Virus genome (UHGV): UHGV-1783823 | Length of the DNA stretch: 35,256 nucleotides | DNA from: a virus | Direction: 5' to 3' (one strand) | Part shown: in pieces, positions 10,891 through 20,161 of the stretch | How positions within the stretch are numbered: the first letter of the stretch is position 1 | How the letters are laid out: each line of letters opens with the position of its first letter | Position numbers and translations under genes: made by a program | The notes under the pieces: model-generated | Told to the model about the DNA's origin: nothing | Database searches by the model: none | Seen by the model: only the letters and a program-made list of their open reading frames with translations

Positions 10891-10920
10891 AAGGCTCCTT
10901 TTTACGGGAGCCTTTTTTGT
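10891..10920. terminator. Bidirectional rho-independent terminator between convergent operons
   Basis: AAGGCTCC / GGAGCCTT 8-bp stem with 8-nt loop, flanked by T-runs; lies between + gene end 10885 and - gene end 10922. Confidence 0.7.
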
Positions 10921-11822: not shown

Positions 11823-12368
11823 TCAAAAGTGTCCTTTTACTTGTGGAACATAGATTTCAAAGGTTGCTTTACCATCATCTGAGGGTCTTGACTGCACCTT
11901 TGCAAATACACGGTTATCATACAGTTTATCGAAGAAGTTTTCAAAAGGTAAATATACAGTGGCCTCTTCAGTAACCTTATGGAAAACTGTATGGAAAACT
12001 ACACCAGCATACGGCAAAGCATTGACAAGAACACCTGCACCACCAATTACAAAGATATCTTCATCAATAGAGCTATCAAGGTACTTCAAAAATGCTCCAA
12101 AGGACTCTTTGCTGGCCTTAGCATACATTACATCTTCTTTACCAAAGTCTATACCAAAATATGGCACAGAGTTTGTTAAGATAAGGTTTTCACGTTCTGG
12201 TAAAGGCTTACTACCCAGAGTCTTAAAAGTCTCATTACCCATCACTACTAAGTTATTTTTAGTGAGTCTCTTAAACTCTTGCATGTCCTGTTTATGTCGA
12301 GGCCACGGCATACCAGTTGGAGTACCAAACTCACCATTTTCACCACTTGCAAAGATTAATTTAATCAT
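11823..12368 (-). CDS. folA: Dihydrofolate reductase
   Basis: N-terminal IFASGENGEFG..MPW...D...F, VVMGNETFKTLG, PLPERENLILT, VIGGAGV; 1-nt gap to thyA. Confidence 0.85.
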   Translation of the reverse strand: MIKLIFASGENGEFGTPTGMPWPRHKQDMQEFKRLTKNNLVVMGNETFKTLGSKPLPERENLILTNSVPYFGIDFGKEDVMYAKASKESFGAFLKYLDSSIDEDIFVIGGAGVLVNALPYAGVVFHTVFHKVTEEATVYLPFENFFDKLYDNRVFAKVQSRPSDDGKATFEIYVPQVKGHF

Positions 12369-12625
12369 TTTGTAAATCCTTTCTTAATGAACCAGTTGAT
12401 AACACTCTTCACAACTTTACTACGATGGTAGATAAAATGTGGAGAGGGTTGGTATGAACCATAAGCCCAGAAAGCGATAATTTCATTACACCCTGTGCAT
12501 CGGGTACTTTCTTCAGCAATATGACCGTTGACTATTTCACTTACCTCACCTTGTAAGTCTGTACACCCGCAATGTGGACAACGGATAGGTGTTCCATCAG
12601 ACTCATAGCAGTGTTCAATTTTCAT
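12365..12625 (-). CDS. Zinc-ribbon protein (CxxC...CxxC)
   Basis: CPHCGC...CTGCNE cysteine pairs; ATGA overlap with DHFR start. Confidence 0.55.
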   Translation of the reverse strand: MKIEHCYESDGTPIRCPHCGCTDLQGEVSEIVNGHIAEESTRCTGCNEIIAFWAYGSYQPSPHFIYHRSKVVKSVINWFIKKGFTK

Positions 12626-13141
12626 CTATTTAACCTCAAAAACTGGTTCAAGAACCAATATAAAGTCCACACAGTCATCTTCTTCATCCAGAATACCATC
12701 AAAGTTCTTAGGTACAAAGTCGAAGAGGCTCATAGAATATCGGTCAGAAGTAACCCTGATAGTGTTCCCTATATTCTCTACAGTTAATATTGTACGGCTT
12801 TCTGTTACCTCACTTAGAAGATTACTCACAAAGTCATCTAAGAAGTGTTTCATCAGTGACTTGAAGCCTTTAGGGTAATCTGTACCAGAGTATGTTTCAA
12901 TCTGAGGAACAAGCTTAACATTTATACTAGTCTTTGTTAAGAACGTTTTAGAGAACATGCTATCAGGTAGCTTACAAACAGTCTTTCCAGTACCTTCATG
13001 TTCAATCTCAACAAAACCAGCTTCGTCGCCACATGTAACTATTTTAAAAGATGCTTCATTCTCATACTGTGAAGCCATAAACTTTTTAAGCATTTCTTTA
13101 AGGAAATCTGCATGAGCATCTTGTAAGTAGATATCAATCAT
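12626..13141 (-). CDS. Hypothetical protein
   Basis: 171 aa ORF co-oriented in the early operon; no motif recognised. Confidence 0.55.
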   Translation of the reverse strand: MIDIYLQDAHADFLKEMLKKFMASQYENEASFKIVTCGDEAGFVEIEHEGTGKTVCKLPDSMFSKTFLTKTSINVKLVPQIETYSGTDYPKGFKSLMKHFLDDFVSNLLSEVTESRTILTVENIGNTIRVTSDRYSMSLFDFVPKNFDGILDEEDDCVDFILVLEPVFEVK

Positions 13142-13154
13142 AGTTAATCACCTA

Positions 13155-13514
13155 TTATGGGAACAAGCACTTAATGTCATCGTTTTTGAAAACAAAACTT
13201 GTGTAGTTGTGACCATCAACATCTAGCCAAACAGCCTGAACATCTACACCATCAAGATTCTGGTAAAGCTCTTTGATGAAGTGGTCTTTCACAATCTGGC
13301 TGCTAGTTGTTTCCAGCTTAATGTTCGAGATTGCTGAACCTACAGCCATATAACCCATGACACGTTTCTTCTCAGTATGCTTAATCTTACCATCTTTGTA
13401 AGCCATAATGAGATTGGAGAGAATCTTCACACCATAATACTTTTCAAGGTGAGTAGGTACGCCATAAAAGCCTAATGCGAAGTTTTCAGAGTGGATAATG
13501 TTTTCACGTTTCAT
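13155..13514 (-). CDS. Hypothetical protein
   Basis: 119 aa ORF co-oriented in the early operon; no motif recognised. Confidence 0.55.
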   Translation of the reverse strand: MKRENIIHSENFALGFYGVPTHLEKYYGVKILSNLIMAYKDGKIKHTEKKRVMGYMAVGSAISNIKLETTSSQIVKDHFIKELYQNLDGVDVQAVWLDVDGHNYTSFVFKNDDIKCLFP

Positions 13515-13515
13515 A

Positions 13516-13845
13516 TTAATCTGCCAACCTTAAATTGAAATTAACACCAAATTTTTCACATACTTCCAACATATACTCAAGGGAGACGTTACCAGTGAGA
13601 TGGATTATGTTGGATACACGAGCCTGAGAGATACCACAAATTTTAGCAACTTGCTCTTGAGAAAGACCTCTGGATTTAATCTCTCTCTTAAAACGATGTG
13701 CAACGAAATCCCTCATCTCGTCTACATCCATTGGACAAATATAACTCTCCATTTCAGCCTCTCTATCAGCCTCCCAATCATCTTGTGGAGCATAAGGGTC
13801 AAAAACCTCATTCATCTTTCTTCTTCCGTTTACGTGAAGTATCAA
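13516..13845 (-). CDS. Helix-turn-helix DNA-binding protein (XRE-like HTH at C-terminus)
   Basis: LSQEQVAKICGISQARVSNIIHL matches HTH_3-type helix-turn-helix pattern; true start may be the internal Met (MNEVFDPY). Confidence 0.6.
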   Translation of the reverse strand: MILHVNGRRKMNEVFDPYAPQDDWEADREAEMESYICPMDVDEMRDFVAHRFKREIKSRGLSQEQVAKICGISQARVSNIIHLTGNVSLEYMLEVCEKFGVNFNLRLAD

Positions 13846-14020
13846 TTAATGAGTCTATGTTTGTAGCTCTGACCTTTTCACGTTCATCATTAAGATAATC
13901 GTCAAGAGCCTTTTCAATCTGTGAATCATCCTGACAGATGACTGTAAAGACTGTAAAGCCGTCTGTATCGTCAATTATCTTACCATAACCGCTTCTGGGA
14001 TGTAACTTTTTAAGAGCCAT
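13808..14020 (-). CDS. Hypothetical small protein with basic C-terminus
   Basis: 70 aa ORF; overlaps upstream gene by ~38 nt; C-terminal RKRKKKDE. Confidence 0.4.
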   Translation of the reverse strand: MALKKLHPRSGYGKIIDDTDGFTVFTVICQDDSQIEKALDDYLNDEREKVRATNIDSLIDTSRKRKKKDE

Positions 14021-14021
14021 A

Positions 14022-14405
14022 TCAAATACCTGTGCAGCTTCTGTTTTCTAAGAAATACTCAACACCATACATAGCTTTTTGCATCAAATCTTCTTTAAAC
14101 TGGATACGATGATTGAGCATAGCCTGTACATCAATATCATCAGGGTGCTTCTCTTTAATATTTGCAGATTGCAGGAAATACTCTGCAAGAACACGATACT
14201 GATAGTCAGTTACCTTATCAGTCATCTCTGTTAAAGACTCTTCAGAGATTGGTTTAAGTAGTTCACCTTTAGATAGGGCAACACCTTTAACAATCTGGCA
14301 AGTGTCTTCTGGAACACCTGATAAGTCCACATTTGGAAGTTCTGTTGCATTGACTGGTAAATTCATTGCCATAACCATTGCAGCAGCTAATAAAATCTTT
14401 TTCAT
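14022..14405 (-). CDS. Secreted/periplasmic protein with N-terminal signal peptide
   Basis: MKKILLAAAMVMAMNLPVNATE has the n-h-c architecture of a Sec signal peptide with an AxA-like cleavage region. Confidence 0.6.
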   Translation of the reverse strand: MKKILLAAAMVMAMNLPVNATELPNVDLSGVPEDTCQIVKGVALSKGELLKPISEESLTEMTDKVTDYQYRVLAEYFLQSANIKEKHPDDIDVQAMLNHRIQFKEDLMQKAMYGVEYFLENRSCTGI

Positions 14406-14450
14406 AATGACCTCAAAGTTATATTAAATTTTGTATTACATTGAGTATAA

Positions 14451-14497
14451 AAATAAGCTATAACACCTGACTTGTCAACAGATTTTATAGCTTATTT
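14451..14497. promoter_or_regulatory. 13-bp perfect inverted repeat with 21-bp spacer containing a TTGACA hexamer (- strand)
   Basis: AAATAAGCTATAA (14451-14463) and its reverse complement TTATAGCTTATTT (14485-14497); spacer includes TGTCAA at 14473-14478. Confidence 0.5.
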
Positions 14498-14532
14498 GGC
14501 AGATTTTTTATAAGGCTACTGCCATCCTTCCA

Positions 14533-14582
14533 TACCTTACCTAACCAAACCGAACCTCACACAACCAGACCGAGCCGCACCC
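14533..14582. repeat. Pentanucleotide tandem array A, ~10 units, consensus NACCN; G-poor on + strand
   Basis: tacct tacct aacca aaccg aacct cacac aacca gaccg agccg caccc; ACC recurs with exact 5-bp period. Confidence 0.7.
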
Positions 14583-14588
14583 CGCCTT

Positions 14589-14612
14589 ATTAAAAGACCC
14601 TCTTCAAAGACC
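14589..14612. promoter_or_regulatory. Conserved box copy 1 (TTAAAAGACCCTCTTCAAAGACC) following array A
   Basis: ~20 of 24 positions identical to the box at 14749-14771; followed by a 7-bp stem hairpin (AGTCTCA 14626-14632 / TGAGACT 14645-14651). Confidence 0.5.
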
Positions 14613-14664
14613 TTTTAAAAAGGTAAGTCTCATTTTAATGTAGCTGAGACTAACTACCCATACT

Positions 14665-14748
14665 GTACCGCACCTGACCCGACCTGACCAGACCTAACAT
14701 TACCGTGCCACACCGTACCGAACAGAACACTGCCATACCTCACATCAC
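14665..14748. repeat. Pentanucleotide tandem array B, ~16 units, consensus NNACC; - strand reads GGTCT GGTCA GGTCG GGTCA GGTGC GGTAC
   Basis: gtacc gcacc tgacc cgacc tgacc agacc taaca ttacc gtgcc acacc gtacc gaaca gaaca ctgcc atacc tcaca; strict 5-bp register over ~80 bp. Confidence 0.7.
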
Positions 14749-14781
14749 TTAAAAACCCTCTTAGAAGACTCTTAAGTGATG
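14743..14781. promoter_or_regulatory. Conserved box copy 2 (TTAAAAACCCTCTTAGAAGACTC, 14749-14771) embedded in a 10-bp perfect inverted repeat
   Basis: CATCACTTAA (14743-14752) and TTAAGTGATG (14772-14781) are exact reverse complements; the 19-nt loop carries the box core. Confidence 0.5.
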
Positions 14782-14996
14782 CTGGTGAGTACCCGTTGGT
14801 TTATGCTGCTCAGTATACTCACCAAATTTTCTATGTCAACAACTTTTTATATAAAAGTCCTGATAGCTATATGTGTTACAAAACAGAAGATTGTGAACAA
14901 AACACCCATTGCAAAAGATGTGTCCAAAAGCTTACTTGCAATGTATGACAATACAAAGACAACCAGTATAAACAGAATGACTGTACTGAACATAGT

Positions 14997-16100
14997 TTAC
15001 TCATAATCCCTAATAACTAGCCCTACAGGAAACTGTAAAGAACCCTTACGAGTCATCTTCTGGAACTGAACAGTTAAAGGTTTCCCGATAAACTCTTCAG
15101 GATGTTCAGCAAGATACTGTTTCTTCTCATGTGTAGTTTTCCATGAAACATCTACAAAGACGTTAGGAAGAGTCTCTACAACGAACTTACCATGACCACG
15201 CTTATCGGTCTTTACACCAGTCACTTTAAACTCTTCAGTGTGCATCTTCTTGTGCTTAATCAAGAAGTATGAACGGTGACAACACTCATAGAAGGAGTCT
15301 TCAGAGATTGAACGGTACATTGCACCTTCAAACTTAGCTTCAACCCACTTATCATGAGCTTCATCGAACTCTTCCCAAGAGTTAACACGACGAGACTTAA
15401 CAGGAACAACTTTACAGCCATCTCTAAAGTCATTCAATGGTGAAGTCTCAATAATATCTCTACGCTCAGGCCACGTCTTAGTACTATCACAGATATCATA
15501 CCAGTAGAACTTAAGTAAGTGTCTGTCAGGATTGTCTTCATTTTTAATCATGGAGACAATATCTTCTAAGTCCCACCCATGAGCATAAATCTCTCCATCA
15601 AATTCATCAACATCTTTGTGGAGCCTTAACATTGCCATAATGTCGGGTATTAGTTCAGTAGGGATTTTATAAACAGTATTCTCACGAGAGTATGCTGTGA
15701 ATACACTACCAATGCTTAAGTGTCTTGAAATTCTACAACGGACACCATCAAGTTTTGGTTGAGCATCAGCAGGGAACTTCAAATACTTTGCATGGCTAAC
15801 CTTTGCAGCATCATGAGCAAGCTGTACACCCACCTTCTCAGTATTCTGTGCAGACTCTTTTGTGTAAGCATAACCTTTACGGTCAACTTGCTTTTTATAC
15901 TTAGCAGCAACTTCAAAGAGAGCTTGCTGTTCAGCGTCACGCTCATTCTTTTTACCGATGTTTTTAGGTTCTGCTGTATACTCTTCAAACATCATCTTGC
16001 CATTTTCTTTACCATAGGTTGTAATAACTTTGTCACCTACAGCAACACATGACCAGACGTTGAAGGAACCGTCTTTATTTTGTTTGTACAGAATTGTCAT
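14997..16100 (-). CDS. ATP-dependent DNA ligase
   Basis: Nucleotidyltransferase motif I KLDGVRC (KxDGxR, Arg favours ATP-dependent type), DEFDGEIYAHG (motif III-like), EGAMYRS and FLIKHKK (motifs IV/V-like); start set at internal ATG 16100 preceded by RBS AGAGG rather than ORF-track start 16136. Confidence 0.8.
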   Translation of the reverse strand: MTILYKQNKDGSFNVWSCVAVGDKVITTYGKENGKMMFEEYTAEPKNIGKKNERDAEQQALFEVAAKYKKQVDRKGYAYTKESAQNTEKVGVQLAHDAAKVSHAKYLKFPADAQPKLDGVRCRISRHLSIGSVFTAYSRENTVYKIPTELIPDIMAMLRLHKDVDEFDGEIYAHGWDLEDIVSMIKNEDNPDRHLLKFYWYDICDSTKTWPERRDIIETSPLNDFRDGCKVVPVKSRRVNSWEEFDEAHDKWVEAKFEGAMYRSISEDSFYECCHRSYFLIKHKKMHTEEFKVTGVKTDKRGHGKFVVETLPNVFVDVSWKTTHEKKQYLAEHPEEFIGKPLTVQFQKMTRKGSLQFPVGLVIRDYE

Positions 16101-16293
16101 TTTTAACCTCTGAGTGATACCAAGTATTGCAAGCATTACATGCGTAAAGCTCTAAGTCATTTTTATCTGGTTTATGGAAACAGTTTGACCCACAACGACA
16201 CCGGAATAGCTTACCATCAACACGAAGAATGAACGTTTCAAGCTTACCATCTTCTGTAAGAACTGCGTTCTTAAATTTATCTTCTACAGTCAT
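16075..16293 (-). CDS. Zinc-ribbon protein
   Basis: CRCGSNC ... CNACN cysteine clusters; 72 aa. Confidence 0.5.
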   Translation of the reverse strand: MTVEDKFKNAVLTEDGKLETFILRVDGKLFRCRCGSNCFHKPDKNDLELYACNACNTWYHSEVKNDNSVQTK

Positions 16294-19934: not shown

Positions 19935-20161
19935 ACATTACTGCAAAAAATTATAAAAAGCAAGTTGACAATGTACTTGACAAGGTGTTAATCTTTGCGA
20001 AGTGGGTTTTTACTTAAAAGGTTACTTAACAGTTTAACTATACAGATACTTTAAAACTCTTAAAAGATTATTTAATAGCTTTTAAAAAGCTTTAAAGTAT
20101 AACGTATAGAATACGTTAAGATAAAAGATTAAAACTTAATAGTTACTTAAAAGAGGCTTAC
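19935..20161. promoter_or_regulatory. Divergent AT-rich control region between polymerase (-) and rightward operon (+)
   Basis: - strand TATAAT (+ coords 19950-19955); two + strand TTGACA hexamers (19965-19970, 19977-19982); near-palindrome AGCTTTTAAAAAGCT (20077-20091); perfect 8-bp inverted repeat TAACGTAT-AGA-ATACGTTA (20100-20118) overlapping a TAGAAT -10-like hexamer; repeated TTACTTAAAAG. Confidence 0.5.

What the first reader, a model, noticed from the sequence alone, without database searches (positions are those of the whole stretch)
12365..14020. Block of five small unknown genes including an HTH protein, between the secreted protein and DHFR
Zn-ribbon (86 aa), 171-aa, 119-aa, HTH (109 aa) and 70-aa genes, all without recognisable enzymatic motifs, sit in the early operon. 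Such clusters in virulent phages often encode host-takeover or anti-defence functions. The HTH protein is a candidate binder of the dyads at 14451-14497 and 20100-20118.
Basis: inference. Interest (0 to 1): 0.45.

Follow-up and report, generated by a model that had tools for sequence, protein, structure and literature searches.

The report
Five accessory genes of a Felix-O1-like phage
The five small genes are real, conserved accessory genes of Felix O1-like phages. Work on the near-identical phage Bas63 has already linked two of them to bacterial immunity: the DNA-binding protein triggers the DRT7 defence, and the zinc-ribbon protein matters only on some hosts. The other three remain of unknown function.

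Summary
The window is a Felixounavirus, about 97% identical to phages Andreotti, KhF3 and VpaE1. The five minus-strand ORFs exist as described. They are under purifying selection (dN/dS 0-0.17) and are packed into one operon with the secreted protein, DHFR and thymidylate synthase.

They are orthologues of Bas63 genes 0032-0036. Three are 100% identical: the 119-aa, HTH and 70-aa proteins.

- **HTH protein:** it starts at the ATG, so it is 99 aa, not 109. It is an Xre-type regulator with an acidic N-terminal tail. It is identical to Bas63-035, the published trigger of the DRT7 defence system, and is dispensable for growth.
- **Zn-ribbon protein:** this is Bas63 gene 32, which has a host-dependent fitness effect and was called "Lar-like". 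Here the similarity to Lar covers only the zinc ribbon and falls below the family cut-offs.
- **The 171-, 119- and 70-aa proteins:** these are lineage-restricted orphans. Their structure models were too poor to use.

The two dyads are real but unrelated. The one at 20101-20117 has classic operator geometry and keeps its symmetry through compensatory changes in three genera. The one at 14451-14497 is an invariant promoter hairpin.

This is mostly known biology. Anti-defence roles are suggested for at most one gene.

The parts
12365..12625 (-). 86-aa Zn-ribbon protein. Orthologue of Bas63 gp32 and FO1a gp81; phrog_2993.
   Evidence: ORF. 83.7% identical to bas63_0032. The four Cys and the motif [FY]W[AS]YGxYxP are conserved, also in remote relatives in T4-like, Seuratvirus, Nonagvirus and Pseudomonas phages. 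Similarity to Lar/RalR covers the ribbon only.
12626..13141 (-). 171-aa acidic orphan protein (pI 4.6, net charge -13). Orthologue of Bas63 gp33; phrog_4422.
   Evidence: Only 5 hits among 1.84 billion representative proteins. No Pfam or PDB match. AlphaFold model pLDDT 39.8.
13155..13514 (-). 119-aa protein. Orthologue of Bas63 gp34; phrog_4116. It is the most widely conserved gene of the block.
   Evidence: 100% identical to bas63_0034. Found in 301 phage records, including Erwinia, Hafnia and Kolesnikvirus phages, where it lies within two genes of the DNA ligase without the other four genes. Motif GSAISNxKL. Model pLDDT 45.9.
13516..13815 (-). 99-aa Xre/Cro-type HTH protein with an acidic N-terminal tail of 38 aa (net charge -11.5). 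Identical to Bas63-035.
   Evidence: PF01381 scores 39.4 bits against a cut-off of 23, and HTH_37 27.9 against 27. 100% identical to bas63_0035. The N-terminal tail and the recognition helix ISQ[AS]RVSNI are conserved across genera. Charge.
13808..14020 (-). 70-aa protein with an invariant basic C-terminus (VRATN[IL]DSLIDTSRKR[KR]KKDE). Orthologue of Bas63 gp36; phrog_4473. It overlaps the HTH start by 8 nt.
   Evidence: No significant Pfam or PDB match.
14022..14405 (-). 127-aa protein with a signal peptide. First gene of the operon (context).
   Evidence: 97.6% identical to bas63_0037 but only about 36% to the Moogle and SUSP2 homologues.
14450..14497 (-). Operon promoter TTGACA-17-TATTTT, embedded in dyad 1. 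The dyad has 19-nt arms and a 9-nt loop that holds the -35 hexamer.
   Evidence: As RNA the hairpin folds at -18 kcal/mol, z = -4.6. Identical in the six phages from three genera aligned, and nearly invariant among the genomes carrying the anchor sequence.
14529..14719 (-). Two arrays with a 5-nt period, (GGTNN)n, at 14529-14581 and 14662-14719. They lie upstream of the operon promoter and downstream of a second promoter at 14839-14812.
   Evidence: 14 matches against 0.02 expected. Found only in the intergenic gaps between ligase and the 127-aa gene of related phages. Sequence is hypervariable but the period is kept.
20101..20117 (.). Dyad 2, AACGTAT-AGA-ATACGTT. An operator-like 7+3+7 palindrome in the divergent control region between the DNA polymerase gene and the rightward genes.
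   Evidence: Three perfect palindromic variants occur across genera, explained by symmetric double substitutions. Single copy in the window and in the loci fetched up to that point, which include Bas63 18-36 and 44-68 kb.
10891..10914 (.). Bidirectional intrinsic terminator that ends the operon after thymidylate synthase.
   Evidence: The same element is listed as t79/t80 in Felix O1 (PMC3185647).

Best explanation
The block is a conserved, co-transcribed and probably translationally coupled run of five accessory genes. It sits in the leftward replication and nucleotide-metabolism transcription unit of a Felix O1-like phage. The genes are orthologues of Bas63 gp32-36 and FO1a gp81-85. It is not one machine, and the genes have different evolutionary ranges and probably different jobs.

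1. **HTH protein.** It is a non-essential Xre-type DNA-binding regulator: a C-terminal HTH plus a conserved acidic N-terminal tail. Its most likely job (inferred) is to act as a dimeric repressor or modulator at the 17-bp palindrome 20101-20117, which overlaps promoter-like -10 elements of the divergent early control region. This would tune the early-to-middle switch. It has been shown for the identical Bas63 protein that the host DRT7 abortive-infection system responds to it.
2. **Zn-ribbon protein.** It is a small metal-binding accessory factor whose importance depends on the host genotype (shown in Bas63). It is plausibly an anti-restriction-type factor, but it is not a bona fide Lar.
3. 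**119-aa protein.** It is an Ounavirinae-wide core protein linked to DNA ligase. It probably serves DNA metabolism rather than host conflict.
4. **171-aa acidic and 70-aa basic-tailed proteins.** These are orphans confined to the Felixounavirus, Mooglevirus and Suspvirus group. Their function is open.
For: - **Identity of the phage and the orthology:**
- **Purifying selection:**
- **Operon architecture:**
- **PhageMaP gene numbers match the Bas63 locus tags for genes 65, 79, 80, 84 and 85 (gene 74 is one off):**. Gene 32 is therefore the Zn-ribbon gene, which is less important in DH10B than in BW25113, MG1655 and S17-1.
- **DRT7:** all three Bas63 escape mutants hit Bas63-035 through start-codon or frameshift changes, and co-expression with DRT7 is toxic. 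The protein here is 100% identical.
- **HTH family assignment:**
- **Recognition helix and N-terminal tail conserved across genera:**
- **Dyad 2:** it has 7+3+7 geometry and three perfectly palindromic variants that arose by symmetric double substitutions. A Hafnia relative that has no HTH gene in the region examined also has no ACGTAT-type palindrome upstream of its polymerase gene.
- **119-aa protein:** it occurs within two genes of the ligase in relatives that lack the other four genes.
- **Timing:** Felix O1 RT-PCR shows genes of this stretch peaking at 10-25 min.
Against: - No binding data exist. Dyad 2 could equally be a small RNA or DNA hairpin, because the compensatory changes fit both readings.
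- The HTH is dispensable, so it cannot be the master temporal switch.
- The purified trigger does not activate DRT7 in vitro. How the HTH protein activates DRT7 is therefore unknown.
- PhageMaP's gene-32 effect is a pooled-screen result with no clonal validation reported. The authors' link to type IV restriction is their own speculation.
- Both AlphaFold models were unusable, so three of the five proteins have no functional evidence at all.
- ORF and gp numbering for Felix O1 is ambiguous by one. This limits how firmly the RT-PCR classes can be assigned.
Confidence: 0.55

Rival explanations
1. Aca-like circuit. The HTH protein is an autorepressor of its own operon promoter through dyad 1 (14451-14497). 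It shuts down a strong early promoter that drives anti-defence genes, as anti-CRISPR-associated (Aca) regulators do.
For: - The dyad encloses the -35 hexamer of the operon promoter.
- The dyad and promoter are identical in the six phages from three genera aligned, and the HTH recognition helix is also conserved.
- The HTH gene lies inside the operon it would control.
- The dyad arms occur only in fetched loci that also carry the HTH gene.
Against: - The perfect half-sites are 32 bp apart centre to centre. That is hairpin or terminator geometry rather than a dimer operator.
- The element folds well as RNA (-18 kcal/mol, z = -4.6) and is followed by a U-rich run.
- None of the co-transcribed genes is a demonstrated anti-defence gene.
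- Invariance could instead reflect recombination at module boundaries.
Confidence: 0.2
2. Anti-defence island. Most or all of the five proteins are inhibitors of host immunity.
For: - They are small, accessory and lineage-restricted proteins.
- The 171-aa protein is acidic, with net charge -13.
- The Zn-ribbon gene is the most diverged of the block within the genus. Its dS is 0.65-0.74, against 0.11-0.32 for the other four genes of the block.
- The Zn-ribbon gene has a host-dependent fitness effect in Bas63.
- Its RB49 homologue sits directly after a DNA methyltransferase gene.
- There is an insertion hot-spot next to the 171-aa gene: Moogle and SUSP2 carry an extra 167-aa gene between the 119-aa and 171-aa homologues.
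Against: - PhageMaP challenged Bas63 knockouts with 12 defence systems. The text names g77, g79, g80, g84, g85 and g130 as counters and none of g32-36.
- The 119-, HTH and 70-aa proteins are 100% conserved between this phage and Bas63, with dN = 0. This is not the pattern expected of an arms race.
- The 119-aa protein tracks the ligase across the subfamily.
- No gene hits PADLOC or a known anti-defence family.
Confidence: 0.15
3. Antitoxin-like module. The HTH protein is a HigA2-type antitoxin homologue, with a disordered acidic N-terminal domain and a C-terminal HTH. It would neutralise either a host toxin or the product of the upstream, overlapping 70-aa gene.
For: - HTH_37 hit at threshold.
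- Weak hits to the antitoxin families Y4mF/HipB, PezA and HigA, and to PDB HigA2 and PezA.
- The gene order, a small gene followed by the HTH gene with an 8-nt overlap, mirrors higB-higA.
- The N-terminal tail is strongly conserved.
Against: - Every antitoxin hit is far below its family cut-off and can be explained by generic Xre similarity.
- The 70-aa protein has no RelE/HigB or other toxin signature.
- HTH-null phages are viable.
Confidence: 0.08

Closest known systems
Bas63 (Escherichia phage JohannRWettstein, MZ501086) genes bas63_0032-0036; FO1a gp81-85
   Same: Same order, same gene lengths and same flanking genes (TS, DHFR, the 127-aa secreted protein and ligase). Protein identities are 83.7%, 93.0%, 100%, 100% and 100%.
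   Different: Only point differences, concentrated in the Zn-ribbon and 171-aa genes. Bas63 and this window lack the two extra genes that Andreotti, Moogle and SUSP2 carry between the ligase and the 127-aa gene.
Bas63-035, the phage-encoded trigger of the DRT7 reverse-transcriptase/primase defence (bioRxiv 10.64898/2026.04.18.719102)
   Same: The protein sequence is identical. It is annotated as a putative transcriptional regulator.
   Different: Nothing differs at the protein level. The triggering mechanism is unresolved, because the trigger alone does not stimulate DRT7 DNA synthesis in vitro.
Lar/RalR restriction-alleviation protein of the Rac prophage (TIGR03655), and the ECs_2282 CxxC family (NF047912)
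   Same: A CPxCGC...CxGC zinc ribbon of similar spacing. hhalign probability is 78% over 31 columns. Sub-threshold HMM hits occur in 6 of 10 family members for Lar and 8 of 10 for ECs_2282. PhageMaP called Bas63 gene 32 Lar-like.
   Different: Identity is 24% over 37 residues. Scores of 18-21 bits fall well below the cut-offs of 37-40. The family has its own [FY]W[AS]YGxYxP motif and a C-terminal extension that Lar lacks, and the alignment does not extend beyond the zinc ribbon into Lar's C-terminal segment. RalR does not retrieve it by tblastn.
Xre/Cro-C1 HTH regulators embedded in accessory operons: Aca proteins and R-M controller (C) proteins
   Same: A small HTH_3 protein encoded inside the operon, with inverted repeats in promoter regions. 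Weak PADLOC 'control protein' hits at E = 5e-5.
   Different: It has an additional conserved acidic N-terminal tail of 38 aa. No neighbour is a demonstrated anti-defence gene. The best operator candidate lies 6 kb away, in the divergent early control region.
PeSL (promoter-early stem-loop) cassettes of T4-type phages. This comparison rests on my own recollection of Arbiol et al. 2010 and was not checked here.
   Same: A conserved promoter-plus-hairpin unit sits at the boundary of variable gene cassettes.
   Different: Here there is a single copy per genome region. The -35 hexamer lies in the hairpin loop. The unit is preceded by hypervariable (GGTNN)n arrays, which to my recollection PeSLs lack.

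Membership tests
Pfam HTH_3 (PF01381), Xre/Cro-C1 type HTH | Sequence match above the Pfam gathering score | tested here: met
   39.4 bits against a cut-off of 23, residues 53-103 of the 109-aa ORF. HTH_37 scores 27.9 against 27.
Pfam HTH_3 (PF01381), Xre/Cro-C1 type HTH | Sequence-specific binding of a palindromic operator as a dimer | not testable with these tools
   A candidate operator at 20101-20117 has 7+3+7 geometry and symmetric compensatory substitutions. There are no binding data.
DRT7 trigger (Bas63-035) | Same protein as the one whose loss lets Bas63 escape DRT7 and whose co-expression with DRT7 is toxic | tested here: met
   99 of 99 residues identical to bas63_0035. The phenotype comes from the literature.
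Lar family restriction alleviation protein (TIGR03655) | HMM score at or above the curated cut-off of 39.6 bits | tested here: not met
   18.1 bits, E = 2.4e-3. 6 of 10 family members hit, all below the cut-off.
Lar family restriction alleviation protein (TIGR03655) | Four-cysteine zinc ribbon (CPxCG...CxxC) | tested here: met
   C16, C19, C43 and C46 are invariant in the family alignment and align with the RalR cysteines.
Lar family restriction alleviation protein (TIGR03655) | Homology beyond the ribbon, into the C-terminal part of Lar | tested here: not met
   hhalign aligns only 31 columns, the ribbon itself. The family-specific FWAYGSYxP motif is absent from RalR.
Lar family restriction alleviation protein (TIGR03655) | Alleviation of type I restriction in vivo | not testable with these tools
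   The only evidence is indirect. Bas63 gene 32 is less important in DH10B than in three other K-12-derived hosts in a pooled screen.
ECs_2282 putative zinc-binding family (NF047912) | HMM score at or above the curated cut-off of 37 bits | tested here: not met
   20.7 bits. 8 of 10 members hit, best E = 2.3e-5, all below the cut-off.
Type II antitoxins of the HigA, HipB or PezA type | Family HMM above the cut-off, plus a cognate toxin gene next door | tested here: not met
   Scores of 20-23 bits against cut-offs of 48-290. The neighbouring 70-aa and 119-aa proteins carry no toxin signature.
Aca-type autoregulated anti-defence operon | HTH gene co-transcribed with proven anti-defence genes, and inverted repeats in the operon promoter that the HTH binds | tested here: inconclusive
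   An inverted repeat over the -35 hexamer is present and nearly invariant among the genomes carrying the anchor sequence. No neighbour is a proven anti-defence gene, and binding is untested.
Known defence or anti-defence protein families (PADLOC models) | Significant HMM match | tested here: not met
   No hits for four of the proteins. The HTH gets only generic 'control protein' or HTH hits.

The most novel reading that the evidence does not exclude
The HTH protein and the 17-bp palindrome at 20101-20117 form the so far unknown temporal control circuit of Felix O1-like phages. The host DRT7 system has evolved to sense this regulator, or its DNA-bound or transcriptional consequence. Alongside this, the invariant promoter hairpin preceded by hypervariable (GGTNN)n arrays would be a new kind of regulatory or recombination cassette that marks the exchangeable gene modules of Ounavirinae.
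Probability: 0.25. Interest if true: 0.55.

Novelty: already known. Interest (0 to 1): 0.3.

Why it matters
Felix O1-like phages are widely used for Salmonella and E. coli diagnostics and biocontrol. How they time their transcription is still unknown; the 2010 genome paper says so explicitly.

This work places the five 'unknown' genes on the Bas63 map, and that immediately carries two experimental results over to this phage. It should be sensitive to DRT7 through its HTH protein. Its Zn-ribbon gene should matter only on some hosts.

The operator-like palindrome with compensatory evolution gives a concrete, cheap experiment to test the regulator's target. Beyond that, the block is ordinary accessory-gene content seen in more than 250 sequenced genomes.

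Tried and rejected
- **Structure prediction.** AlphaFold2 on the 119-aa protein (10-sequence alignment) and the 171-aa protein (4-sequence alignment) gave mean pLDDT of 45.9 and 39.8. Both are too poor, so no fold search was run.
- **The 171-aa protein.** An exhaustive HMMER search of 1.84 billion representatives found only its own small family.
- **Word-indexed homologue searches.** For the 171-aa, 119-aa and Zn-ribbon proteins these returned only Ounavirinae relatives and no names.
- **Profile searches against PDB and Pfam.** Nothing significant for the 171-, 119- and 70-aa families. A weak uS5 hit for the 119-aa profile (E = 0.055) was not trusted. C2H2 zinc-finger hits for the Zn-ribbon profile were rejected as artefacts of CxxC spacing.
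- **'90% homology to Lar' (PhageMaP).** This is not sequence identity. Identity is 24% over 37 residues.
- **One operator for both dyads.** Rejected, because the two dyads differ in sequence and geometry.
- **The non-coding stretch 14350-15050.** No Rfam family matched it, and ARAGORN found no tRNA gene anywhere in the window.
- **Gene mapping error, corrected.** I first paired the 167-aa Moogle and SUSP2 gene with the 171-aa protein, which gave a spurious dN/dS of 0.5-0.75. That gene is an unrelated insert (phrog_9143). The true homologue is Moogle50, and in SUSP2 it is the split ORF pair.
- **Literature.** One search was uninformative. PhageMaP supplementary tables are not held, so per-gene fitness values for g33-g36 could not be read.
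Full report
**What the window is.** The 2.5 kb around the finding is 96-97% identical to many Felixounavirus genomes, for example Andreotti, KhF3 and VpaE1. 250 phage records match, 213 of them over at least 80% of the query. The region is annotated everywhere as thymidylate synthase, DHFR, three hypothetical proteins, a 'transcriptional regulatory protein', two more hypothetical proteins, a non-coding gap and then DNA ligase.

**The observation.** All five ORFs lie on the minus strand at the stated coordinates.
- The HTH ORF is 109 aa from an upstream TTG. Every annotation uses the ATG at 13815, giving 99 aa.
- Each protein hits its own PHROG family very strongly (E from 1e-26 to 1e-89). Four of those families have unknown function, and the fifth is 'transcriptional regulator'.
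- Against Bas63, FO1a, Moogle and SUSP2, dN/dS is 0-0.17 for all five. This matches the neighbouring DHFR and TS, so these are genuine protein-coding genes.
- Gene junctions are 0-13 nt gaps or 4-8 nt overlaps.
- No terminator is predicted between the promoter at 14478-14450 and the bidirectional terminator at 10891-10914.
- The five genes are therefore co-transcribed with the 127-aa secreted protein, DHFR and TS.

**Mapping to an experimentally studied phage.** The Bas63 genome (MZ501086) has the same block as bas63_0032 to bas63_0036.
- Protein identities to the window are 83.7% (Zn ribbon), 93.0% (171 aa), 100% (119 aa), 100% (HTH) and 100% (70 aa).
- The gene numbers used in the PhageMaP study match the locus tags for genes 65, 79, 80, 84 and 85: 0065 is glutaredoxin, 0079 and 0080 are the NAD enzymes, and 0084 and 0085 are rIIA and rIIB. 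Gene 74 is one off (bas63_0073 is NrdG).
- PhageMaP 'gene 32' is therefore the Zn-ribbon gene. It is reported as less essential in DH10B than in BW25113, MG1655 and S17-1, and is described as Lar-like (PMC11482910).
- A 2026 preprint on DRT7 isolated three Bas63 escape mutants. [quoted passage not shown] Co-expression of this protein with DRT7 kills cells, but the protein alone does not stimulate DRT7 in vitro.
- It follows that the HTH protein of this window is the DRT7 trigger, and that it is dispensable for plaque formation.

**HTH protein.**
- It scores 39.4 bits on HTH_3 (cut-off 23) and also passes HTH_37.
- PDB relatives are generic Xre proteins, PezA and HigA2, all weak.
- Residues 1-38 carry a net charge of -11.5.
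- This tail, MNEVFDPYAPQDDWEAD..., is as conserved across genera as the recognition helix ISQ[AS]RVSNI.

**Zn-ribbon protein.**
- The four cysteines, a conserved tyrosine and the motif [FY]W[AS]YGxYxP define a family. It also has 27-38% identical relatives in T4-like phages (RB49, TG1), Seuratvirus and Nonagvirus phages, and a Pseudomonas phage.
- Against Lar/RalR of the Rac prophage, BLASTP gives 24% identity over 37 residues.
- hhalign gives 78% probability over 31 columns, which is the ribbon only.
- HMM scores of 18-21 bits for Lar and for ECs_2282 fall below the cut-offs of 37-40 bits, although most family members give the same weak hits.
- RalR does not find this family by tblastn.
- I therefore treat it as a Lar-like zinc ribbon at superfamily level, not as a Lar family member.
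- Within the genus it is the most diverged gene of the block. Its dS is 0.65-0.74, against 0.11-0.32 for the other four genes of the block. This suggests a recombination boundary or faster turnover.

**The three orphans.**
- *171-aa protein.* It is acidic (pI 4.6). It has only five hits in 1.84 billion representative proteins, all from Ounavirinae-type contigs with the same synteny. In SUSP2 its homologue is split into two ORFs.
- *119-aa protein.* Its range is wider: 301 phage records, including Erwinia, Hafnia and Kolesnikvirus phages. In those phages it sits within two genes of the DNA ligase, although the HTH, 70-aa, 171-aa and Zn-ribbon genes are absent.
- *70-aa protein.* It has an invariant basic C-terminus.
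- No Pfam, NCBIfam, PADLOC or PDB relationship was found for any of the three.
- The two AlphaFold models were unusable, with pLDDT of 45.9 and 39.8.

**The dyads.** Both are real, but they are different elements.
- *Dyad 1 (14451-14497).*
  - It has 19-nt arms that are 89% complementary, and a 9-nt loop that contains the -35 TTGACA of the operon promoter.
  - It folds as RNA at -18 kcal/mol, z = -4.6.
  - The roughly 90 nt around it are identical in Felixounavirus, Mooglevirus and Suspvirus. Among the genomes carrying the anchor sequence they are nearly invariant. By contrast, the adjacent 127-aa protein is only about 36% identical between these genera.
- *Dyad 2 (20101-20117).*
  - It reads AACGTAT-AGA-ATACGTT. 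It lies in the divergent control region between the DNA polymerase gene and the rightward genes, and overlaps -10-like hexamers on both strands.
  - Among the genomes carrying the anchor sequence it occurs in three forms, all perfect palindromes: AACGTAT/ATACGTT, TACGTAT/ATACGTA and TATGTAT/ATACATA. That amounts to two symmetric double substitutions.
  - Its 7+3+7 geometry is that of a classical operator for an HTH dimer.
  - A Hafnia relative that has no HTH gene in the region examined also has no ACGTAT-type palindrome upstream of its polymerase gene.
  - This makes dyad 2 the better operator candidate. A small hairpin would explain the covariation equally well, and no binding data exist.

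**Timing.** Felix O1 RT-PCR lists ORFs 80, 83, 84, 87 and 88 as peaking at 25 min, and ORF 81 at 10 min (PMC3185647). ORF and gp numbers differ by one between sources, so assignment to individual genes is uncertain. Under either numbering, the tested genes that fall within the five-gene block peak at 10-25 min, that is delayed-early to middle; under the gp numbering only thymidylate synthase (79) peaks at 5 min.

**Verdict.**
The block is accessory and touches host immunity, but the best-documented link is that the HTH is sensed by a defence system. Only the Zn-ribbon gene has any hint of a counter-defence role.
- The block is a known, widely sequenced feature of Felix O1-like phages. Two of its genes have recent experimental phenotypes, and three remain true unknowns.

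Noticed in passing
window 14529-14581 and 14662-14719 (minus strand); also L001, L002, L007, L009, L010 and L019: Arrays with a strict 5-nt period, (GGTNN)n: 14 matches against 0.02 expected. In related phages they occur only in the intergenic gaps between the ligase and the 127-aa gene. Among the genomes carrying the anchor sequence, the 60 nt of array next to the promoter exist in 24 different versions, yet all keep the period. No Rfam match. The function is unknown. Possibilities are a repeat-binding protein site on RNA or DNA, a weak G-quadruplex, or a recombination substrate.
   Followed up: partly
window about 14445-14536 (minus strand): A roughly 90-nt non-coding stretch covering the promoter, dyad 1 and upstream flank is 100% identical in Felixounavirus, Mooglevirus and Suspvirus, although flanking coding sequence is saturated at synonymous sites. 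Only two single-base variants were seen among the genomes carrying the anchor sequence, both in the imperfect inner part of the stem.
   Followed up: partly
window 20101-20117; L019, L020 and the IMG/VR loci L024-L049: The 7+3+7 palindrome in the polymerase-side divergent control region keeps perfect symmetry through two symmetric double substitutions across genera. The whole 251-nt intergenic region is 100% identical between the window and Bas63.
   Followed up: yes
window 14406-14996 compared with L001 6406-8519, L009 and L010: The segment between the ligase and the 127-aa gene is a variable cassette site. Andreotti, Moogle and SUSP2 carry two extra genes there (441 and 588 nt). The window and Bas63 have only a 48-aa ORF (14847-14993) followed by a near-consensus promoter, TTGACA-16-TATACT, at 14839-14812.
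   Followed up: partly
L009 2466-2969 and L010 2476-3495: Moogle and SUSP2 have an extra 167-aa gene (phrog_9143) inserted between the 119-aa and 171-aa homologues. In SUSP2 the 171-aa homologue is split into two ORFs of 303 and 207 nt, either a pseudogene or a sequencing error.
   Followed up: partly
window 16075-16293 (minus strand): A 72-aa Cys-rich ORF overlapping the start of the ligase gene is 96% identical to bas63_0040. PhageMaP reports that gene as a trigger of the hhe defence system.
   Followed up: partly
L015 752-1797 (phage RB49): The remote RB49 homologue of the Zn-ribbon protein (RB49p188) lies immediately downstream of a DNA methyltransferase gene. This is the only informative neighbourhood found for the family.
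   Followed up: no
window 20046-20100 and 14585-14623; L023 315-358: Palindromes of the CTTTTAAAAAG type recur in several intergenic control regions. They are also present upstream of the polymerase gene of a Hafnia Ounavirinae phage that has no HTH gene in the region examined. They may be a subfamily-wide promoter or regulatory motif.
   Followed up: no
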